9,093 nt of DNA, from NCBI GenBank assembly GCA_964426185.1, contig CAYRPF010000101.1, positions 1 to 9,093 of the forward strand, read 5' to 3'. This document shows, piece after piece, positions 3-8,742 of this stretch. The notes beneath the pieces are model-generated. The model saw only the letters and a program-made list of their open reading frames with translations, made no database searches and was not told where the DNA came from. The position numbers and the translations under genes were made by a program. Within the stretch, counting starts at the first letter, position 1. Each line of letters starts with the position of its first letter. The DNA comes from an uncultured archaeon. Lineage in GTDB: Archaea; Asgardarchaeota; Lokiarchaeia; Sigyniarchaeales; Promethearchaeaceae.

Positions 3-3000
3 GATTTGGGCATCGATACTATTAAGCAAGCAGAGATCTTTGGACAGATTCGTGAAAAGTGGCAGATACCAGAAAATGTTGAAGTGAATCTTGCAGATTT
101 TCGAACAATTGAAGATATAGTTAGAATTATTAGATCTTTAGAAAAACCATCGAAAAATGCCTTTTCATCAAATTCAGAGGATATTTCACATGATTTCCAA
201 TATTTAGAAAATATTGAGGAAGATTCTGAAAATAATATTTCAATTTTCTCTCTAAAATCAATTTTGCTAGAAAAACCAAGTGAAAGGGAAGAAAATGAAG
301 AAATTTACAAAAGACCTTTAGTTTTAATCGAGTTTAATGACCATTCACATTTGAATGATAAAGTTCAAGAAGTTTTACAAAGCCGACAGATTAAAATAAT
401 ACCCGTAATATTGAATACCGAATATAATAGCGATGAAATCAAGCGATTCACTGAAAATATCAAAGAAAAACATCATGTTGATGCAATTACACTTGGAATT
501 ATTACACCTGCTCTTGAACAAGAGGATTATTTCCAAAGTTCAGAGAGTATATTAATGGTACTTTTCCATTTTCTAAAAGCTTTGAATCCTGCAATTATTC
601 AAAGTTGTTTTATTTTATCAAATGAAACAATCCTTTCTTCAACTGATATTTCTAATCCCGTAAGTTCTGGAATATCGGGTTTTCTTAAATCGCTTGGTAA
701 AGAATTTAAATTCGAATTTCGACATATTTATTTTTATGATGTAAAAGATGCGATTTCTGAATTATTATATCAAGAAACACTTTCAGAAATCATCTATAAT
801 AAAGAAGGTTTGCGTCATACAATAGATCGAGTCAAAATTTTGCCAACTGACAATGCAAAATCAATTAATATAGAAGAGAATGATTTAGTTTTAGTAACTG
901 GAGGTGCAAGAGGGATTACCTTTGAATGTATTGATAAGTGGACGAATAGTGTCCATCCTTCTCTTATTCTGATTGGTCGAACTCCATATGATTCTTCTCT
1001 AGAATCATACTTACACTATACTGAAGAGCAACTAACTAATCTTAAAAAACAAAAGATTCGCTACTTAAAAAAGCATAATCCATCAATTACACCTGTGCAA
1101 GTTCAGAAAGAATGGAAGAAATTCTTGAACCAATTAGAATTGATAAAAAATCTTCGAAAATTACGAAATAAAGGGATCCAAGTAGAATATTATGATTGCG
1201 ATGTCACAGATTATGATAAAATGGCCGAAATCTATGAAAAAATAAAAAATCAGTTTAAAACACCCGTTTCTGTGATTATTCATGGAGCAGGCATGGAAGA
1301 ATCCAAGAATTTTGAGAAAAAATCTGCATCAATGGTAAAGCTTATTCATGATATAAAAGTCAAGGGTTTTTCAAATCTTCTAAAGATCTTTTCTAAAGAT
1401 TTCTTGAAATATTGTGTTGTATTTTCCAGCATCGCTGGAAGATATGGGAATACTGGACAAGTTGATTATGCCTATGCCAATGCTTTTCTCTCAAGGATGG
1501 CATGGAATTCTCATAATTCAATACCGATGTTAGTTATTGATTGGTCAGCTTGGACCGGAGTGGGAATGGCCACACAAGGTTCAACTTTGAAAATTTTAGA
1601 AATGGCTGGAGTAACACCTATTCCTGTGAGAACTGGAACAGAAATTTTCTCGTTTTTGCTTAGAAATGGCTATACTGGAGAATATATTGTTGCGGGAAAC
1701 ATGGGTATATTTGAACCAAACTTAACTATTACCACAAACTTGGAACCTGAAAAGTTTCCCATGATAAGTTCCGTTCAATATCATAAAGGTGATACTTTCG
1801 GTATTCATAAACTTTCTACAAAGCGAGATTTTTATCTCATCGACCACCAAATTGGCTCAAAACCTGTTTTTCCAGGAGTCATGGTGCTGGAATCTTTCGC
1901 TGAATTCTATAATTCCATTTCTCAAGAAGATCAATTTGATATAATTGATGTTGAATATAAAGTACCGTTAAAAATGCTTGAAGGAAAAGAAACAGAGATA
2001 AAAATGCTCTATAACTCTGAATTTGTCAAGGAACAAGAAGATAATTACGGTAAAGTTATTCCATACCTAATTTTTCAATCAATTTCTTATCCTAAGGTAA
2101 TGAAAGGAAAACCTTTAGTTAAAAATCATTTTACCGGAAAAATATTATCATTATCTGGGAATTCTATGTCTTCTTCCCTTTCTATAAAGATTCCTAAGCA
2201 CATTCCATTTATTTCGTTATTCTCTCAAGAAGAAATATATTCCATTTTCTTTCATGGACCACGATTCAAAGTGATTGAAAAATTATTGATTTGGGAGCAA
2301 GATTCGCTTTTAACGAAAATATCATGTAAAAATGAATTATTATTTTCATCCAATCTCCAAAAACCATCAAAAGAACGATTTTTATTCAATCCATTAGGTA
2401 TTGAGAGCCTTTTCCAGACCGCAGCACTGTATGATTTAGTTCGTTATTCCCAATTATCATTACCTTCTAAAATTGGGAAGATTCACAAGATATCAAATGA
2501 AATACCTCAATATGCTTATGTTATCTATCGAGGAAGAGATGGAACTCATAGTTATTTTGATGCCGTTCTTTTAAACTCTGATAAATCACCCATTTTGGAA
2601 CTTTATTCTCTTGGATTGATCCATACTGATTTGCAAATTCCTATTAAGCCCTATATTAAGGAAAAATTAGAAATTTTGGCAGAAATTGGAGGAATTTTTC
2701 CATCCGATTATAATTCCCAATATCACATCTTACCTTTGCTTCAATTGCGACAAAAATTTGAAGAAAATCCTAGCTTATTAGGTCAATATTTAACTGATAA
2801 TGAAATTCAGCAGATTCAAGAAATTAAGAATGAAAAACGACGATATGAACGAATTGCAGGAATTATATGTGCAAAAAATGCCTACTTTAAATTTTTAAAC
2901 AAATCGGAGCAATATTTAGCGATAGAGGTAATAAAGAAAAAAACTGGTCAACCCTTCATGAAATCAAGTAAATCTTTAGAAATTCTTCCAGTGTACCTTT

Positions 3001-3404
3001 CAATAACTCATTCGAATTCATTTGCTTGTGCTGTTGTTAGTAATCATCCAATTGGAATCGACTTGGAAAAAATAAAAGATCGAAATACATCATTTTACAA
3101 AGAAGTATTTACGCCTCTAGAACAACGTTTCATTCAAGAGAATTCTTTATTGGGGACTAAATTCTGGACTATTAAAGAAGCATTTTCAAAAGCAATCGGC
3201 ACTGGTTTATGCATTAATTTAAAACAGCTTGAGATTTCTCATTCTTCTGAAAATAATCACTTTGATCTTACCTATTTAGGAGAAGAAAAGCGTTTACGAG
3301 AACTTGTTGAAAATGTAAAATGGATTTCTAATCAAAATAAAAACTACATTCTAAGCTTATGTGAAATACCCAAAGAAATCTTTAAGAATTTGGAGGAATT
3401 CTAA
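3..3404 (+). CDS. Type I PKS/FAS-like megasynthase, C-terminal part (5'-truncated): ACP - KR - DH - Sfp-type PPTase
   Basis: The frame is open from the window edge; TTG at 6 is an internal Leu of DLGIDTIKQAE (ACP signature, 3-35). KR: TGGARGI (897-917), HGAG (1281-1292), FSS (1422-1430), catalytic Y in GQVDYAYAN (1467-1469), and a PfaA-type helical insert containing ITPVQV. DH: DHQIGSKPVFPG (His 1845-1847), FHGPRF (2250-2267), NPLGIESLFQ (2388-2417). PPTase: LSITHS, GIDLE (3054-3068), FWTIKEAFSK (3162-3191). KS/AT presumably lie upstream of the window. Confidence 0.92.
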   Translation, partial: DLGIDTIKQAEIFGQIREKWQIPENVEVNLADFRTIEDIVRIIRSLEKPSKNAFSSNSEDISHDFQYLENIEEDSENNISIFSLKSILLEKPSEREENEEIYKRPLVLIEFNDHSHLNDKVQEVLQSRQIKIIPVILNTEYNSDEIKRFTENIKEKHHVDAITLGIITPALEQEDYFQSSESILMVLFHFLKALNPAIIQSCFILSNETILSSTDISNPVSSGISGFLKSLGKEFKFEFRHIYFYDVKDAISELLYQETLSEIIYNKEGLRHTIDRVKILPTDNAKSINIEENDLVLVTGGARGITFECIDKWTNSVHPSLILIGRTPYDSSLESYLHYTEEQLTNLKKQKIRYLKKHNPSITPVQVQKEWKKFLNQLELIKNLRKLRNKGIQVEYYDCDVTDYDKMAEIYEKIKNQFKTPVSVIIHGAGMEESKNFEKKSASMVKLIHDIKVKGFSNLLKIFSKDFLKYCVVFSSIAGRYGNTGQVDYAYANAFLSRMAWNSHNSIPMLVIDWSAWTGVGMATQGSTLKILEMAGVTPIPVRTGTEIFSFLLRNGYTGEYIVAGNMGIFEPNLTITTNLEPEKFPMISSVQYHKGDTFGIHKLSTKRDFYLIDHQIGSKPVFPGVMVLESFAEFYNSISQEDQFDIIDVEYKVPLKMLEGKETEIKMLYNSEFVKEQEDNYGKVIPYLIFQSISYPKVMKGKPLVKNHFTGKILSLSGNSMSSSLSIKIPKHIPFISLFSQEEIYSIFFHGPRFKVIEKLLIWEQDSLLTKISCKNELLFSSNLQKPSKERFLFNPLGIESLFQTAALYDLVRYSQLSLPSKIGKIHKISNEIPQYAYVIYRGRDGTHSYFDAVLLNSDKSPILELYSLGLIHTDLQIPIKPYIKEKLEILAEIGGIFPSDYNSQYHILPLLQLRQKFEENPSLLGQYLTDNEIQQIQEIKNEKRRYERIAGIICAKNAYFKFLNKSEQYLAIEVIKKKTGQPFMKSSKSLEILPVYLSITHSNSFACAVVSNHPIGIDLEKIKDRNTSFYKEVFTPLEQRFIQENSLLGTKFWTIKEAFSKAIGTGLCINLKQLEISHSSENNHFDLTYLGEEKRLRELVENVKWISNQNKNYILSLCEIPKEIFKNLEEF
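3392..3397 (+). promoter_or_regulatory. Shine-Dalgarno-like GGAGGA for the hydrolase gene
   Basis: GGAGGA ends 6 nt before ATG 3404, inside the last codons of the PKS; the stop and start overlap as TAATG. Confidence 0.6.
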
Positions 3405-4219
3405 TGAAGAAAATCGTGCACGAAATTATTGTTAGAGAAGAAAAACTCCACGGAATACTTTTTCTTCCTGATCAAACAACTAAGTCTAAGTTAAAAGATG
3501 ATTCTGAGGAAGCATCTAAAGACTCCGAGGTATTTCCATTAGTAATCCACATCAATGGAATGCCCGGGACTTCACCCGAAGAAGATCAAGAACGGTTTGG
3601 GCAGTGCTTCACCCAGAATGGAATTGCACTCTATTGTTTTGATCACCTCGGGGTTCGCCAGAGTTCTGGGGTCTTTACCTACTTTGCGGCTCAGGCAAAT
3701 ATTGAGTATGTAATTGATAATCTGGTTCAACATCCACAGATTGATCCTCTCAAAATTGGTTTACTAGGGGAAAGTTTTGGGGGTGCAATGGCTCTATGTC
3801 ATACTGCCAGAGACAATAGAATTTCTGCAATCGGAGTTAGATCACCAGTTTTTGACACGGAAATAATTCCTACTTATGGATTTTTTGATGATCTATTGAA
3901 AATTTGGACCAGAAACAAACAAATGCGATTTCCTTCAGGTAATGATTTAAAAAATATCTACATCACTCAAACTCGCCACTATAATCCCAAAAATATGATA
4001 AAAAGGATCAGCCAACCATTTTATTTAGTTGCAGGAAAAAAAGATGAACTACTAGGATATCAAGGATTTGAAAACCTTTTCAAAGAAATTCGTTCTTCAG
4101 TCAAATTTTTTGATCTTCATCCTAAAGCCAATCATAATTTTTCAGATAAAAGTGATTTTGAAAAAATGCGTAATACTTTTGTAAAATTTTTTAATAATGT
4201 TTTATTCAAAGAAAGATGA
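3404..4219 (+). CDS. Alpha/beta-fold serine hydrolase (possible thioesterase)
   Basis: Nucleophile elbow GESFG (Ser 3773-3775), acid in AGKKD (Asp 4043-4045), His in ANHNF (4133-4135), FDHLGVRQSSG strand-turn and oxyanion-loop-like INGMPG. Confidence 0.88.
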   Translation: MKKIVHEIIVREEKLHGILFLPDQTTKSKLKDDSEEASKDSEVFPLVIHINGMPGTSPEEDQERFGQCFTQNGIALYCFDHLGVRQSSGVFTYFAAQANIEYVIDNLVQHPQIDPLKIGLLGESFGGAMALCHTARDNRISAIGVRSPVFDTEIIPTYGFFDDLLKIWTRNKQMRFPSGNDLKNIYITQTRHYNPKNMIKRISQPFYLVAGKKDELLGYQGFENLFKEIRSSVKFFDLHPKANHNFSDKSDFEKMRNTFVKFFNNVLFKER

Positions 4220-4318: not shown

Positions 4319-5404
4319 TTAGTTCTTCAAGATTTTTTTTAATTCATTTCCAATAATTGTACCCATATCTGAACAAGTTGTTTTTTTTAATTTTTTAGTT
4401 TTATCTACAGATCTTGGATAAATATCAAGAGTTCTAGATTCCTCAAGTGAAGTTATTACCGCTTTTTCAATAAACTGCGCTAATTTTGGATCATTGAATT
4501 TTTCTTCAATCATTAGTTTGCATGACAAAATTGCCCCAATTGGATTAGCTATATTTTTTCCCGCAATATCTGGTGCAGAACCGTGAATTGGTTCGAAAAG
4601 GGCTAAACCATTTGGGTTAATATTAGCACTTGGTACCATACCCAAAGAACCAATCAACATTGCGGCTTCATCGCTAATTATATCACCAAACATATTTTCT
4701 GTAACCACTGTTTGAATTGTTGAAGGCGATCTAATTAACCATTGACAAAATGCATCTACATAGAAGTGTTTCTTTGAGATTTGGGGATATTTCTTGCCTT
4801 GTTCATTGAAAATCTCTCTCCAGAATTCACTGCAGGCCAACATATTAGCTTTATCCACTGAAATAATTTCGGTATGATTTTTACGCACTGCAAATTCAAA
4901 GGCATATTGAATGATACGCTCCACCGCCTTTCGTGAATATACCATTGAATTAACTGCACTGTCTTTATTGACGATGCCTCCTATTCTTGCATATAATCCT
5001 TCCGTATTTTCTCGAATAATTGAGATATCAATGCCATTAGGAAAGAATTCTGGCTTTAAGGGGCAGATATCTTGTAATGGTTCATATTGCTTTACAGGGC
5101 GTAAATTTACATAAAGATCGAATCCTTGTCTCATCTTTAAAATTGCAGATTCTGCTACTCCTGCTGGTAAATCTGGGACCCCTATAGCTCCAAAAAGGAT
5201 AGCATCACTTGATTTCATCAAATTAAATGATTTTTCTGGGAGATTCGTGCCAGTCTGTTTGTAAACTTCTCCTCCCAAGGGCGTTTCAATTAAATTGAAA
5301 TCATAATTGGTATATTGGCCAATAATTTTGAGAATTTTCACACCTTCGTTGATAACCTCAGGACCTATACCATCCCCTTTTGCTATTGCGATGGTTTTTT
5401 CCAT
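4319..5404 (-). CDS. leuB: 3-isopropylmalate dehydrogenase (isocitrate/isopropylmalate dehydrogenase family)
   Basis: GDGIGPEV, NLRPVK, IRENTEGLY, VDKAN, ENMFGDIISD and FEPIHGSAPDIAGKNIANP motifs. The substrate-loop segment AESAILKMR resembles IPMDH, and Asp in HGSAPD suggests NAD use. The family is certain; the exact substrate is less so. Confidence 0.8.
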   Translation of the reverse strand: MEKTIAIAKGDGIGPEVINEGVKILKIIGQYTNYDFNLIETPLGGEVYKQTGTNLPEKSFNLMKSSDAILFGAIGVPDLPAGVAESAILKMRQGFDLYVNLRPVKQYEPLQDICPLKPEFFPNGIDISIIRENTEGLYARIGGIVNKDSAVNSMVYSRKAVERIIQYAFEFAVRKNHTEIISVDKANMLACSEFWREIFNEQGKKYPQISKKHFYVDAFCQWLIRSPSTIQTVVTENMFGDIISDEAAMLIGSLGMVPSANINPNGLALFEPIHGSAPDIAGKNIANPIGAILSCKLMIEEKFNDPKLAQFIEKAVITSLEESRTLDIYPRSVDKTKKLKKTTCSDMGTIIGNELKKILKN

Positions 5405-5455: not shown

Positions 5456-5950
5456 TTATTCCTTAGAATTTTGCATAATACTTATTAATTCTTGATCTTG
5501 GAATACATTATCTCCAGGTTTTGGAAATATTTTAGTAATTTTACCTGATATTGGCGCAAGAATGCGGTTACGCATCTTCATTGCTTCCAAAATTAGAAGT
5601 TCTTGCCCTTTTTTAACGATGTCTTGTTCTTTTACTAGTATTTGAAAAATTTTTCCTGGAATTGGAGCTTTCACATTAGAATTTTTAGGGAGATTGGAGT
5701 TTATTATCGAATTTTCCACTTCAATATAGGGTCTAATATTAATATCCACTTCTTCTCCTTCAAGATAAAATTTTCCATTTATTTTTTCTAAAATAAAGGA
5801 ATATTTCCCAAATGTTACTTTAAATCGATTTTCTGCTTGTTGAACCACTTTAGGGGAAAATACATAGCCATCTATTTGAATTTGTTGATTATCCAGGAGT
5901 TCTATGATAAATTCTCTTCCATGATAAATTACTTTCTTTTTTTTAACCAA
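5456..5950 (-). CDS. accB: Biotin carboxyl carrier protein of an acyl-CoA carboxylase
   Basis: EAMKM biotinylation motif (5573-5587, Lys 5576-5578), VKAPIPGKI, and a ~90-aa N-terminal extension. TTG start with AAGGAG (5968-5963) 12 nt upstream; the start is somewhat uncertain. Confidence 0.9.
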   Translation of the reverse strand: MVKKKKVIYHGREFIIELLDNQQIQIDGYVFSPKVVQQAENRFKVTFGKYSFILEKINGKFYLEGEEVDINIRPYIEVENSIINSNLPKNSNVKAPIPGKIFQILVKEQDIVKKGQELLILEAMKMRNRILAPISGKITKIFPKPGDNVFQDQELISIMQNSKE

Positions 5951-5992: not shown

Positions 5993-7486
5993 TTACCGTA
6001 CTTGTTCTCTCCGTGCTGATTCTCTCCATAAATTTCGAGTTGGCCGAGTTTGTATTTCGGTAACGCTTTTTGTAGGCGTCAACTTGAATAATTCCATCAC
6101 TTGGGATATTGCTGCAATTTTCATATATTCGTAATTTCTGAGAATCTTGGCAATATTTATTTGATTTAAAAATTCGGTAGAAATCGTCCAACGTTTGTAT
6201 TCTCTAGTTTCAATAATTGCTTGATGTAGTTCTAGGTTTGTCTTTAAACCAGAAATTGTTAATTCTCTAAGGGCTGTACGGGCTTGAATAATTGCTTGAT
6301 CTCGTGTTCGAGCCCAAACAATTAGCTTTCCAATTAGAGAATCAAAATTATTGGGAATAACATAATTTGGGTATATAAATGTGTCAAATCTGACATTAGA
6401 ACCACCTGGGATAATAACTTGAGTTATTTTTCCACTTTGAGGGAGATTTTGGGTGTGTGGATCTTCAGCATTAATTCGAAATTCGATAGCATGACCGCTA
6501 AATCGAATGTCTTTTTGGACATAAGTTAAAGGTTGACCTGCGGCCACTCTGAGCTGTTCTACCACTAGATCAATACCAGTGATCATTTCTGTAACAGGAT
6601 GCTCGACTTGAATGCGTGGATTTACTTCATTGAAATAAATTTTGCCATTTTTCCATAAAAATTCCGCCGTTCCTGCATTTACATATCCAAGATTCTTTGC
6701 TAATTCACAAACTTTTATTCCCAGCTGATTGATTTCATCCCGAGGGAGAAAAGAGGGTGCTTCTTCTATTAATTTTTGATTAGCGCGCTGAATTGAGCAT
6801 TCTCGATCTCCTAAATGAATAACATTTCCATGATTGTCTCCAATGAATTGGATCTCAATGTGACGGGGATTTTCGATAAATTTTTCAATAAATATCTCTT
6901 TTCGACCGAAAAATTGTTCTGAAATTGCCTGACATCCTTCAAATGCAGATTCCAAGGTAGATTGTTCATTAACTCTTTCCATTCCTCGGCCTCCGCCTCC
7001 AAAAGCAGCTTTAATTATAATTGGATAGCCTATTTGTTCTGCTATCTCATGTGCTTCTTCCAAAGTTGTGATATATCCTGAAGATCCTGGCACAGTAGGC
7101 AGACCTACTTGAGCTGCGATTGTTTTTGCTTTAATTTTATCTCCCAGATAATCGATAATTTCTGATTTTGGACCAATTAATACTTTCCCGTTCTCTTCAA
7201 CTCTGCGTGCAAAATCCGCATTTTCTGATAAAAACCCATATCCAGGGTGAATTGCATCTGCATTAGACTTTTCAAGAATTTCTAAGATTTTTGGAATGTT
7301 AAGATATGTTTCTTGGACAGTTCCCGAACCTAATGAATAACATTCATCTGCTAATTTGACATGTAAAGAATATTGATCTTCTGTAGAAAATACAGCAATA
7401 GCATAAATTCCTTGCAAACGACAAGCTCGAATAATTCGAACCGCAATCTCACCACGGTTGGCAATAAGTACAGATTGAAGAGTCAT
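5993..7486 (-). CDS. accC: Biotin carboxylase subunit (acetyl/propionyl-CoA carboxylase type)
   Basis: ANRGEIA, HPGYGFLSENA, KAAFGGGGRGM, RHIEIQ, RECSIQR, EVNPRIQVEHPVTE and EFRINAED motifs; adjacent to a stand-alone BCCP. Confidence 0.93.
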   Translation of the reverse strand: MTLQSVLIANRGEIAVRIIRACRLQGIYAIAVFSTEDQYSLHVKLADECYSLGSGTVQETYLNIPKILEILEKSNADAIHPGYGFLSENADFARRVEENGKVLIGPKSEIIDYLGDKIKAKTIAAQVGLPTVPGSSGYITTLEEAHEIAEQIGYPIIIKAAFGGGGRGMERVNEQSTLESAFEGCQAISEQFFGRKEIFIEKFIENPRHIEIQFIGDNHGNVIHLGDRECSIQRANQKLIEEAPSFLPRDEINQLGIKVCELAKNLGYVNAGTAEFLWKNGKIYFNEVNPRIQVEHPVTEMITGIDLVVEQLRVAAGQPLTYVQKDIRFSGHAIEFRINAEDPHTQNLPQSGKITQVIIPGGSNVRFDTFIYPNYVIPNNFDSLIGKLIVWARTRDQAIIQARTALRELTISGLKTNLELHQAIIETREYKRWTISTEFLNQINIAKILRNYEYMKIAAISQVMELFKLTPTKSVTEIQTRPTRNLWRESARREQVR

Positions 7487-7619: not shown

Positions 7620-7820
7620 TTAATCAGATACATCTAATTCAAAGAGTTGTGAAACTGGAATATCAAAAAATTTAGCAATTTTCAATGCTAAAATAAGGTT
7701 TGGTTTTTTTGTTCCATTTTCAATATAGGAGATCATTTGACGGGATACCCCTACTGCTTCAGCAAGTTCCTGTTGTGAAAGATGGAAATTTTCTCTGTAT
7801 TCACGCACCCTATTCTTCAT
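7620..7820 (-). CDS. XRE-family (cro/C1-type HTH) transcriptional regulator, 66 aa, CylR2-like
   Basis: MKNRVREYR..LSQQELAEAVGVSRQMISYIENG..PNLILALKIAKFF..P..QLF is a complete small XRE. I moved the start from 7910 to ATG 7820, which has AAGGA at 7836-7832 and AATATAAA at 7856-7849 upstream. Confidence 0.9.
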   Translation of the reverse strand: MKNRVREYRENFHLSQQELAEAVGVSRQMISYIENGTKKPNLILALKIAKFFDIPVSQLFELDVSD

Positions 7821-7864
7821 TATCTTAGATATCCTTGAATTATGCTGCTTTATATTCATGTAGT

Positions 7865-7880
7865 GAAAAACAGAAAAAAG
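7865..7880 (-). terminator. Possible oligo-T (archaeal-type) terminator after the PH-XRE gene
   Basis: The minus strand reads CTTTTTTCTGTTTTTC starting ~14 nt after the TGA; I saw no GC hairpin. Confidence 0.35.
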
Positions 7881-7893
7881 ATAGTTCTGCTTA

Positions 7894-8742
7894 TCAATCT
7901 GTGAGTTCAAATAATTCTTCTATTGGAACTTTGAATGTATGTGCTATTTTCATAGCCAGAGTTAAAGAAGGCACGTATTCTCCTGATTCCAAATATTGAA
8001 TTGTGCTTTCTGAGACACCAATTTTATCGGCCAATTGAGGGATTGTAATTCCTTCTTTTTCTCGTAATAATCGAATCTTGGTTCTTATTTGATCTTTCTC
8101 CCGCATTTTTGATAGAAAATAGGCAATAAACTCATCAAATACCACATTGTTATCAGAAAATACATTGGACGAAACAGATTTTGGGATATTTTGTGTGTAT
8201 TTATGCACTAATTGATTCATTTTTTCCTCAATAATTGACGGATTACGAACTCCCGGGATATATCCTTCTGGACGAATACTTCCTTTTTGAGCACTTGCTG
8301 CAGCAGCACTTGAACCTGCAGTTTCGATTTTTATTTTATAAATTTTGAGTATTCGATCTCTAATGTTCTGGTAGATTGCCACGTTTTGAATGCGTGAATA
8401 AGGTATGGTAGTCTTAGTTTTAGTTAAAACACCATATCTAATTATAATAAACTTATCTGTAAATTCATATGAAAACGCTTTTACATATAATACTGAGAAT
8501 ATAAGGGTTAATCCAATGATGAGAACAGTAACTCCAATCATTACCCAGAATATGACAATCCAAAGTAATCCTTCATTTAAATTACTATTCTCATCTCTGG
8601 CGATCAGTATAATCAACCATCCAATTCCGTAGATAATCAAATCAACTAATAAAGTGCCTATTATACTTCCAATTACTTCATGTTTGACAAATGCTGGGTC
8701 AATACCATGAATATCTTCATGTTCCGATGTTGTCGGTTTCAT
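7894..8742 (-). CDS. Membrane protein: 2 TM helices + bacterial PH domain (bPH_2/YdbS-like) + C-terminal XRE HTH
   Basis: Hydrophobic segments at aa ~23-48 and ~59-87. YEFTDKFIIIRYGVLTKTKTTIPYSRIQNV..Q..DRIL....IKIETAG is the bPH_2 pattern. aa ~220-282 (nt 8085-7897) form an XRE domain. Confidence 0.88.
   Translation of the reverse strand: MKPTTSEHEDIHGIDPAFVKHEVIGSIIGTLLVDLIIYGIGWLIILIARDENSNLNEGLLWIVIFWVMIGVTVLIIGLTLIFSVLYVKAFSYEFTDKFIIIRYGVLTKTKTTIPYSRIQNVAIYQNIRDRILKIYKIKIETAGSSAAAASAQKGSIRPEGYIPGVRNPSIIEEKMNQLVHKYTQNIPKSVSSNVFSDNNVVFDEFIAYFLSKMREKDQIRTKIRLLREKEGITIPQLADKIGVSESTIQYLESGEYVPSLTLAMKIAHTFKVPIEELFELTD

What the first reader, a model, noticed from the sequence alone, without database searches (positions are those of the whole stretch)
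3..140. ACP with threonine in place of the phosphopantetheine-accepting serine (DLGIDT)
Seen: DLGIDTIKQAEIF, with codon ACT at 18-20. Established: carrier proteins are modified on the Ser of (D/E)LGxDS, as in PfaA DLGIDSIK. The rest of the ACP pattern is intact (helix II, then FRTIEDIV). I recall DLG(I/V)DT(V/I)KQAE in other uncharacterised bacterial PKSs but cannot verify that here. Inference: this is either a Thr-phosphopantetheinylated ACP class served by its own fused PPTase, or an inactive structural copy in a tandem ACP array.
Basis: partly seen in the sequence, partly recalled or inferred. Interest (0 to 1): 0.72.

Follow-up and report, generated by a model that had tools for sequence, protein, structure and literature searches.

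The report
Threonine-type acyl carriers, Asgard megasynthase
Every acyl-carrier domain of a giant, self-priming fatty-acid/polyketide synthase in this Asgard archaeon has threonine where all studied carrier proteins have the serine that holds the phosphopantetheine arm; the swap is fixed across a large bacterial and archaeal enzyme family, which points to an undescribed and still unproven threonine-linked form of a universal cofactor attachment.

Summary
Window nt 3-41 read DLGIDTIKQAEIF, with ACT (Thr) at 18-20.

The window starts at a contig edge inside a tandem ACP array. The upstream half of the gene lies on contig C9, where both complete ACPs also read DLGIDT (ACC, ACC). All 15 ACPs of four Asgard orthologues are Thr, and all four Thr codons are used.

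In an index-free search, the 150 best relatives split into 84 all-Thr, 62 all-Ser and 4 mixed arrays. Thr goes with the single-polypeptide KS-AT-KS2-ACPn-KR-DH(±PPTase) layout, the 'Type R' secondary-lipid synthase of Shulse & Allen 2011. It also goes with an almost invariant Gln at +3 (851 of 854 domains).

In four Asgard genomes, one of them closed, these ACPs are the only carrier domains found. The fused Sfp-type PPTase is the only PPTase found, and its catalytic residues are invariant.

The reading 'inactive structural copy' is rejected. The best reading (about 0.6) is that Thr is the working phosphopantetheine acceptor. No biochemical evidence exists, and E. coli ACP S36T is the textbook non-modifiable mutant.

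This scan has noted the same feature before on other DNA (97 notes, at least 83 genomes). I reached it independently here. I add the Thr/Gln+3 coupling, the all-or-none array statistics and a cultured host (Amycolatopsis sp. NPDC021455).

The parts
3..149 (+). C-terminal two thirds (helix II to helix IV) of the last ACP repeat of the synthase. The N-terminal third lies beyond the contig edge, at the end of contig C9.
   Evidence: 19-nt overlap with the C9 end; alignment to solved ACPs; fold of the complete upstream repeat: helices at 9-21, 42-56 and 72-93, with Thr42 as the first residue of helix II.
18..20 (+). ACT: Thr at the phosphopantetheine-acceptor position.
27..29 (+). CAA: Gln at +3, the residue that co-varies with the Thr acceptor.
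   Evidence: Thr is followed by Gln+3 in 851 of 854 domains; Ser is followed by Arg or Lys in 277 of 307.
888..1556 (+). Ketoreductase (KR) domain, residues 296-518 of the window protein.
   Evidence: PF08659, 1.3e-30. TGGARGIT and YAYAN motifs seen.
1770..2600 (+). PKS-type dehydratase (DH) domain.
   Evidence: PF21089, residues 602-668. His615 invariant; homology to the DH region of P0002.
2688..3404 (+). Fused Sfp-type 4'-phosphopantetheinyl transferase domain (residues 896-1133) and the stop codon.
   Evidence: PF01648, 9.1e-20; alignment on Sfp His90, Asp107/Glu109 and Lys150/Glu151/Lys155. His1003, Asp1020, Glu1022, Lys1058, Glu1059 and Lys1063 invariant in 53 synthases; the only PPTase found in the genome.
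3404..4219 (+). Alpha/beta-hydrolase gene whose start overlaps the synthase stop (ATGA). Probable product-release enzyme (inferred).
   Evidence: Hydrolase_4, Peptidase_S9, Abhydrolase_1; syntenic in G001, G002 and G031.
5456..5950 (-). Biotin carboxyl carrier protein. Probable malonyl-CoA supply for the synthase.
   Evidence: Biotin_lipoyl; syntenic in G001 and G002.
5993..7486 (-). Biotin carboxylase. Probable malonyl-CoA supply. The matching carboxyltransferase and a biotin ligase lie just upstream of the synthase on contig C9.
   Evidence: Carboxyl_trans at L005:6850-8427; BPL_LplA_LipB at L005:5838-6647.

Best explanation
The window opens inside the last carrier domain of one very large iterative synthase. 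Its layout is ER-KS-AT-KS2-ACP(at least 3)-KR-DH-PPTase. The gene is split between contig C9 and this contig by an assembly break in the 300-nt ACP repeats.

Its ACPs belong to a large, ancient class in which the phosphopantetheine acceptor at the N-terminus of helix II is Thr, not Ser, and is coupled to Gln at +3. This class is the 'Type R' secondary-lipid synthases.

The most likely mechanism is as follows. The fused Sfp-type PPTase transfers 4'-phosphopantetheine from CoA onto the Thr hydroxyl of each ACP, in cis or within a dimer, giving a Thr-O-phosphodiester. The holo-ACPs then carry malonyl and acyl thioesters between KS, AT, KS2, KR, DH and ER to build a fatty-acyl or polyketide lipid from malonyl-CoA, which the adjacent acetyl-CoA carboxylase genes supply. 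The downstream alpha/beta-hydrolase releases the product.

Shown here: the sequence, its conservation, the architecture, the Thr/Gln+3 covariation, the absence of any other detected carrier or PPTase in the archaeal genomes, and the intact catalytic motifs. Inferred: that Thr is actually modified, the chemistry of the link, the cis-priming, the role of the hydrolase and the product.
For: 1. Positional identity. The Thr aligns on the Ppant-Ser of solved ACPs and is the first residue of helix II in a confident model (pLDDT 84).

2. Selection for Thr itself.
- 15 of 15 Asgard ACPs are Thr and use all four codons.
- In 120 named loci the codons are ACC 154, ACG 121, ACT 18 and ACA 16, and 31 loci use two or more codons within one array.
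- Ser is one base change away from any Thr codon.

3. A trait of the whole system.
- In the index-free search the top 150 relatives are 84 all-Thr, 62 all-Ser and 4 mixed.
- Thr goes with the in-line KS2 layout and Ser with canonical PfaA.
- The labels need 5 changes on the KS1 tree, against about 28 when shuffled.

4. Thr and Ser exchange at the same position within working-looking synthases. P0189 has the Type-R layout with five Ser ACPs and is nested among Thr clades (support 97). P0217 reads Ser, Thr, Ser.

5. Coupled change. Thr goes with Gln+3 in 851 of 854 domains.

6. The PPTase has no other substrate. In G000 and in G001 (closed), G002 and G031, the only PF00550 hits are these ACPs and the only PF01648 hit is the fused domain.

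7. The PPTase looks active. His1003, Asp1020, Glu1022, Lys1058, Glu1059 and Lys1063 are invariant in 53 Thr-type synthases and align on the Sfp catalytic residues.

8. The rest of the synthase is intact. KS1 and KS2 keep Cys-His-His, and the AT GHSLGE, KR and DH motifs are present.

9. Docking model. PPTase + ACP + CoA + Mg scored 0.75, with a best control of 0.01. That mark was reached by 58 of 80 solved complexes and by 2 of 110 mismatched pairs; the runs agree in at least 95% of contacts, and the partner's pLDDT is at least 78. Thr42 touches Glu1059, the Sfp Glu151 equivalent. Sfp-PCP and AcpS-ACP complexes are solved, so this pass may only reflect likeness to them.
Against: - No biochemical evidence exists. 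I found no report of a Thr-linked phosphopantetheine in the searchable literature.
- In the best-studied carrier, E. coli ACP, S36T 'cannot be post-translationally modified by 4'-PP' and is used as a null (PMC3340395). Spinach ACP-I S38T is also reported as non-functional (cited in PMC9310384).
- A dedicated PPTase was found with only 38 of 73 Thr-type loci that could be judged within 8 kb, so a private PPTase is not shown to be universal.
- The genome is a 92%-complete MAG. The absence of another carrier or PPTase is firm only for the closed relative G001, and only at Pfam sensitivity.
- The docking result may be memory of solved PPTase-carrier complexes.
Confidence: 0.6

Rival explanations
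1. The Thr-type ACP-like domains are never phosphopantetheinylated. They serve as structural spacers or docking modules, and the synthase works on CoA-bound or otherwise tethered intermediates, or is inactive.
For: S36T in E. coli ACP and S38T in spinach ACP-I are not modified or not functional. Archaea generally lack ACP-dependent fatty-acid synthesis (own knowledge). No modification has been measured.
Against: The fused PPTase keeps every catalytic residue across 53 diverse synthases and has no other detected substrate in four Asgard genomes. Helix II and the DLGxD motif are more strongly conserved than in the Ser class. All catalytic domains are intact. Tandem multiplication of carriers (3-6 copies) is typical of working PfaA-type carriers (PMC3098273). 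Ser and Thr swap at the same site within one array.
Confidence: 0.12
2. Thr is modified, but not with plain 4'-phosphopantetheine, or not by the fused domain. The domain may transfer a different CoA-derived group, or another unrecognised enzyme may prime the carriers and the fused PPTase may have a different role.
For: Only 38 of 73 loci that could be judged show a dedicated PPTase nearby. The invariant Gln+3 and the distinctive helix II hint at altered recognition.
Against: The PPTase domain is a standard Sfp-type fold with the CoA- and Mg-binding motifs conserved. KS, AT, KR, DH and ER chemistry needs a thiol arm. No other candidate transferase was found in the archaeal cluster.
Confidence: 0.1
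3. Thr is a tolerated, nearly neutral substitute for Ser. Any broad-range Sfp-type PPTase can use it, so there is no special Thr system, only a founder effect in one clade.
For: Thr and Ser interchange within one array (P0217) and within one clade (P0189). On the KS tree the Thr class is essentially one large clade (141 Thr, 1 mixed and 2 Ser rows among 143) with Ser-type PfaA as sister, which fits a single ancient switch.
Against: Ser is one base change away from every Thr codon, and synonymous turnover is plentiful. Even so, 854 Thr domains stay Thr, arrays are all-or-none, and Thr is locked to Gln+3. That pattern shows constraint, not drift. This rival still implies a Thr-linked arm, so it differs from the best explanation only on specificity.
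Confidence: 0.15
4. Sequencing, assembly or contamination artefact.
For: The window begins at a contig edge inside a repeat. The genome is a MAG with 2.3% estimated contamination.
Against: Synonymous ACC/ACC/ACT among paralogous repeats. Three independent assemblies agree at nt 18-20. An intact syntenic orthologue sits in a closed genome of the same genus.
Confidence: 0.01

Closest known systems
'Type R' secondary-lipid synthase gene cluster (Shulse & Allen 2011, PLoS One 6:e20146, PMC3098273)
   Same: One pfaA homologue with KS-MAT-'CLF'-ACP(3-6)-KR, an associated PPTase, and an acetyl-CoA carboxylase gene alongside in Koribacter. It is scattered across distant phyla and its product is unknown. 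The window's gene has the same core layout and ACC neighbours. A Korobacteraceae MAG protein (P0048) falls in the same Thr clade.
   Different: The paper never mentions the acceptor residue: the words serine and threonine occur 0 times. It lists no archaea. The Asgard form adds an N-terminal PfaD-like ER and fuses the PPTase. The 'CLF' here keeps Cys-His-His and looks like a true second KS. I did not check the five original Type R genomes directly.
Tandem ACP domains of PfaA with PPTase PfaE (PUFA synthases; NCBIfam TIGR02813)
   Same: The orthologue P0002 scores above the TIGR02813 cut-off (1052.6 against 1010.1). It has tandem 'beads-on-a-string' ACPs with the core E-A-D-L-G-I-D-x-(I/V)-K-x-x-E, and a KS-AT-ACPn-KR-DH order.
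   Different: PfaA ACPs read DS-I-K-(R/K)-V-E; these read DT-(V/I)-K-Q-A-E. PfaA works with separate PfaB, PfaC and PfaD subunits that include FabA-type DH domains. Here a second KS, an ER and the PPTase are in one chain, and no FabA-type DH was seen.
Enediyne PKSE (for example SgcE, CalE8): self-phosphopantetheinylating iterative PKS, KS-AT-ACP-KR-DH-PPTase (own knowledge)
   Same: A C-terminal fused Sfp-type PPTase that primes the ACP of the same polypeptide, on an iterative type I layout.
   Different: PKSE has a single Ser-type ACP, no second KS and no ER. No specific sequence relationship was tested here.
E. coli ACP S36T and spinach ACP-I S38T mutants
   Same: Thr at exactly the acceptor position of an otherwise normal ACP.
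   Different: Those engineered proteins are reported as unmodifiable or non-functional and serve as negative controls (PMC3340395; PMC9310384). Here Thr is the conserved natural state, with its own helix-II signature and its own PPTase.

Membership tests
Acyl carrier protein / PP-binding (Pfam PF00550) | Sequence match above the curated cut-off | tested here: met
   40.2 bits against 20.8; 26.9 bits; all Asgard repeats over the cut-off.
Acyl carrier protein / PP-binding (Pfam PF00550) | Helical-bundle fold with the acceptor at the N-terminus of helix II | tested here: met
   pLDDT 84, helix II starts at Thr42; alignment to 5y08 and 1klp.
Acyl carrier protein / PP-binding (Pfam PF00550) | Conserved Ser in (D/E)xGxDS as the phosphopantetheine acceptor | tested here: not met
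   Thr in every repeat. This is the finding itself.
Acyl carrier protein / PP-binding (Pfam PF00550) | Carries 4'-phosphopantetheine | not testable with these tools
   Needs mass spectrometry of the protein.
'Type R' secondary-lipid synthase (Shulse & Allen 2011) | Single pfaA homologue with KS-MAT-CLF-ACP(3-6)-KR | tested here: met
   KS1-AT-KS2-ACP(at least 3)-KR-DH in one reading frame across C9 and the window.
'Type R' secondary-lipid synthase (Shulse & Allen 2011) | Associated PPTase, often with ACC genes | tested here: met
   Fused PPTase. Carboxyltransferase, BCCP, biotin carboxylase and biotin ligase flank the gene.
'Type R' secondary-lipid synthase (Shulse & Allen 2011) | KS groups with the original Type R members (Koribacter, Solibacter, Elusimicrobium, Roseiflexus) | tested here: inconclusive
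   The original genomes were not in my tree. A Korobacteraceae MAG protein and Elusimicrobia and Chloroflexi loci carry the same Thr-type arrays.
PfaA (NCBIfam TIGR02813) | Whole-protein score above the curated cut-off | tested here: met
   1052.6 against 1010.1, for the intact orthologue P0002. The window's own gene is split and was not scored whole.
PfaA (NCBIfam TIGR02813) | Works with separate PfaB, PfaC (KS-CLF-FabA-type DH x2) and PfaD subunits | tested here: not met
   no such genes in the cluster. ER and a second KS are in-line and no FabA-type DH was found.
Sfp-type PPTase (Pfam PF01648) | Two-lobed domain with the His, GxDxE and WxxKE(A/S)xxK motifs | tested here: met

The most novel reading that the evidence does not exclude
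O-(4'-phosphopantetheinyl)-threonine is a natural, widespread post-translational modification. A whole class of carrier proteins (signature DLGxD-T-(V/I)-K-Q) is primed on Thr by PPTases that have co-evolved with it, and this priming is orthogonal to the cell's Ser-based ACP/AcpS system. In Asgard archaea, which otherwise lack ACP and PPTase, this self-priming megasynthase with its own malonyl-CoA supply is a complete, horizontally acquired, ACP-dependent fatty-acyl pathway.
Probability: 0.45. Interest if true: 0.9.

Novelty: new variant of a known kind. Interest (0 to 1): 0.8.

Why it matters
The serine acceptor is treated as invariant in carrier-protein biochemistry. It is built into motif definitions and genome-mining rules, and Ser-to-Thr is the standard 'dead' control.

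If thousands of natural synthases use Thr, several things follow:

- **New modification:** a new protein-cofactor linkage exists.
- **Annotation:** tools that require Ser will mis-score a whole class of lipid and polyketide synthases.
- **Engineering:** a Thr-specific PPTase and carrier pair could give an orthogonal labelling and priming tool.
- **Chemistry:** a Thr phosphodiester may resist beta-elimination or ACP phosphodiesterases better than the Ser link (inference, not tested here).

For Asgard archaea, a self-contained ACP-dependent acyl-chain synthase bears on the debate about fatty-acid-based lipids at the archaea-eukaryote boundary.

Tried and rejected
- **Artefact or contamination:** rejected.
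- **'Inactive copy in a mixed array':** rejected. All copies are Thr and no Ser carrier was found in the genome.
- **Alternative genetic code:** not pursued. ACN is Thr in table 11 and the frame is open.
- **Literature:** searches for the motif (LGIDT, GIDTVKQ), for 'threonine instead of serine' with phosphopantetheine, and for PUFA synthase with threonine returned nothing relevant. The one Asgard paper that mentions polyketide synthase does so only in its reference list.
- **Word-seeded homologue search:** it gave 516 Thr against 1 Ser. I do not use that ratio as a frequency, because the seeding words include the Thr motif. The index-free search replaces it.
- **RNA evidence:** no RNA holder was listed for the window, so nothing can be said about expression.
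- **Public runs:** they are held as contigs only. They show presence and agreement at nt 18-20, not read depth.
- **'Every Thr-type array has its own PPTase next door':** tested and not upheld as universal. It holds in 38 of 73 loci that could be judged within 8 kb.
- **Monophyly of the N-terminal ER fusion:** ER-bearing rows are scattered on the KS tree, so I make no claim about a single fusion event or about the donor of the Asgard gene.
- **PPTase specificity determinants:** the only all-Ser Type-R protein (P0189) differs at four positions conserved in the Thr class. With n=1 this is a lead, not evidence.
Full report
**Observation**

Window nt 3-41 translate to DLGIDTIKQAEIF. The acceptor-position codon at 18-20 is ACT (Thr) and the +3 codon at 27-29 is CAA (Gln). 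phmmer against all PDB chains aligns this Thr exactly on the phosphopantetheine-bearing Ser of the two PigH ACPs (5y08) and of AcpM (1klp).

**What the window start really is**

The window is the whole of contig C101 and begins at the contig edge. Contig C9 ends in an open 2,455-codon frame whose last residues are ...EEDLGID. Its last 19 nt are identical to the window's first 19 nt. So C9 and C101 are two halves of one gene, broken by the assembler inside 300-nt tandem ACP repeats. A public contig laid on the window shows the same 300-nt self-repeat.

The full protein reads:

- an NMO-type (PfaD-like) ER
- KS
- AT
- a second KS
- at least 3 ACPs
- KR
- DH
- an Sfp-type PPTase

The true ACP number in this genome is unknown because of the break. 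The closed genome of the same genus has five.

The cluster around the gene is as follows, and it is syntenic in three other Asgard genomes:

| Gene | Position relative to the synthase |
|---|---|
| Biotin ligase | upstream, on C9 |
| Acyl-CoA carboxyltransferase | upstream, on C9 |
| Alpha/beta-hydrolase | downstream; its ATG overlaps the synthase stop |
| BCCP | downstream, opposite strand |
| Biotin carboxylase | downstream, opposite strand |

**Not an artefact**

- The two complete upstream repeats carry ACC where the window has ACT.
- Contigs from three independent runs cover nt 18-20, and no alternative base is reported there.
- A closed 4.36-Mb genome of the same genus has an intact 3,795-aa orthologue. 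Sources name it as a Lokiarchaeota protein.
- All 15 ACPs in the four Asgard genomes are Thr, and all four Thr codons occur.

**How wide the feature is**

A word-seeded search with the ACP region found 533 relatives. They come from Asgard lineages, Thermoplasmatota and many bacterial phyla. Nearly all their ACPs are Thr, but that search is biased by Thr-containing seed words.

The index-free HMMER search with one ACP repeat against 1.84 billion representatives gave 4,322 hits. Among the best 150 proteins, 84 have only Thr, 62 have only Ser and 4 are mixed. An array is therefore all-Thr or all-Ser.

The two classes differ in three ways:

- **Helix II motif.** Thr class: DLG(I/V)D-T-V-K-Q-A-E-x-F...R. 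Ser class: DLGID-S-I-K-(R/K)-V-E-x-L...Q.
- **Residue at +3.** Thr is followed by Gln in 851 of 854 domains. Ser is followed by Arg or Lys in 277 of 307 domains and by Gln in 16.
- **Architecture.** The Thr class is KS-AT-KS2-ACPn-KR-DH, with or without a fused PPTase and an N-terminal ER. The Ser class is canonical PfaA, KS-AT-ACPn-KR.

On a KS1 tree of 173 proteins the labels need 5 changes, against about 28 when shuffled. The Thr class is essentially one large clade with Ser-type PfaA as its sister.

The exceptions help:

- P0189 has the full Type-R layout with five Ser ACPs (DS-VK-V-AE) and is nested among Thr proteins (support 97).
- P0217 alternates Ser, Thr, Ser.
- P0059 and P0144 each end a Thr array with one Ser domain.
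- In every one of these cases, Thr keeps Gln+3 and Ser does not.

**Why Thr is probably a working acceptor**

1. In this genome and in three related Asgard genomes, one of them closed, the only PP-binding domains found are these Thr-type ACPs. The only PPTase found is the fused domain. The PPTase has nothing else to act on.
2. The PPTase aligns on Sfp His90, Asp107/Glu109 and Lys150/Glu151/Lys155. The equivalent residues (His1003, Asp1020, Glu1022, Lys1058, Glu1059, Lys1063) are invariant in 53 diverse Thr-type synthases.
3. KS1 and KS2 keep Cys-His-His, and the AT, KR and DH motifs are present. A megasynthase under this much constraint needs working carriers.
4. Ser is one base change from any Thr codon, and synonymous turnover at the site is abundant: ACC 154, ACG 121, ACT 18, ACA 16, with 31 of 120 loci using two or more codons in one array. 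Yet Thr persists. That indicates selection for Thr, not mere tolerance.
5. The ACP folds confidently, with Thr42 as the first residue of helix II.
6. A docking model of PPTase + ACP + CoA + Mg scored 0.75, with a best control of 0.01.
   - That mark was reached by 58 of 80 solved complexes and by 2 of 110 mismatched pairs.
   - The runs agree in at least 95% of contacts, and the partner's pLDDT is at least 78.
   - Thr42 touches Glu1059, the catalytic-base equivalent. Residue 43 touches Glu1022 and Trp1055.
   - Sfp-PCP and AcpS-ACP complexes are solved, so this pass may show only likeness to them.

**What speaks against it**

- Nothing has been measured.
- The nearest experiments go the other way. 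E. coli ACP S36T 'cannot be post-translationally modified by 4'-PP' and is used as a null (PMC3340395). Spinach ACP-I S38T is described as non-functional (cited in PMC9310384).
- I found no paper that describes a Thr-linked arm or this motif.
- A dedicated PPTase, fused or adjacent, was seen in only 38 of 73 loci that could be judged.

**Comparison with what is known**

The family matches the 'Type R' secondary-lipid synthase of Shulse & Allen 2011: a single pfaA homologue with KS-MAT-CLF-ACP(3-6)-KR, an associated PPTase and sometimes an ACC gene. It was reported from Koribacter, Solibacter, Elusimicrobium and Roseiflexus, and its product is unknown. That paper does not mention the acceptor residue. 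The intact orthologue also passes the NCBIfam PfaA cut-off.

As a carrier protein it meets the fold and profile criteria. It fails the defining Ser. So it works like an ACP, but it is a variant of the kind.

**Earlier notes of this scan**

One search shows the same feature was noted before on other DNA: 97 notes in at least 83 genomes. Several follow-ups reached the same Type-R, Thr-acceptor reading. I reached it independently before that look-up.

- the join of C9 and C101
- the all-or-none array statistics from an index-free search
- the Thr/Gln+3 coupling
- the caveat about PPTase adjacency
- a cultured host, Amycolatopsis sp. NPDC021455, whose locus L078 is AT-KS2-ACPx4-KR-DH

**Verdict**

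- 'Inactive copy' is rejected.
- 'Thr-phosphopantetheinylated ACP class' is the best reading at about 0.6.
- It is a new variant of a known kind, of high interest, and directly testable by mass spectrometry.

Noticed in passing
G000:C9:53478-60844 (L005:8479-15843), protein residues ~1903, 2054 and 2089: The second KS-like domain, called 'CLF' in the Type R description, keeps the Cys-His-His triad here (NAACATT, SHETYTP, KGFTGH). It keeps the Cys in 144 of 165 relatives. It looks like a true second ketosynthase with an unusual SHETYTPARGGS motif, not a Cys-less chain-length factor.
   Followed up: partly
window 1 / G000:C9:60844: The assembly breaks inside the 300-nt ACP repeats. C9's last 19 nt equal the window's first 19 nt, so the number of ACPs in this genome (at least 3) is not known. 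The closed relative has 5.
   Followed up: partly
P0189 (metagenome protein, 3234 aa): This is the only all-Ser synthase seen with the Type-R layout. Its fused PPTase departs from the Thr-class consensus at four positions that are at least 97% conserved (R946K, G982K, G1018A, G1066R; window numbering). These may be specificity determinants, or the domain may be decaying.
   Followed up: partly
window 3404-4219 (+): The alpha/beta-hydrolase gene start overlaps the synthase stop (ATGA). It is syntenic in three other Asgard genomes and is a candidate chain-release enzyme.
   Followed up: partly
window 1845-1874 (+), DH motif: The DH active-site motif reads HQIGSKPVFP (Gly shifted by one). The orthologue in the closed genome has the standard HxxxGxxxxP (HQIEGRPVLP). 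The His and Pro are kept.
   Followed up: no
41 related genomes: The synthase is patchy among relatives. It was found in 4 of 41 genomes searched (both other genomes of the genus, and 1 of 22 in another family), which suggests gain by transfer or frequent loss.
   Followed up: no
P0083: A Thr-type synthase with a fused PPTase is filed in NCBI under the sugar maple Acer saccharum. It is probably a microbial contaminant in a plant assembly.
   Followed up: no
window 7620-7910 and 7894-8742 (-): Two overlapping HTH_3 (Xre-type) regulator genes. The longer one carries a bacterial PH (bPH_2) domain in front of the HTH.
   Followed up: no
window 4319-5404 (-): An isocitrate/isopropylmalate dehydrogenase family gene sits between the hydrolase and the BCCP and biotin carboxylase genes. 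It is syntenic in G001 but absent from that position in G002.
   Followed up: no
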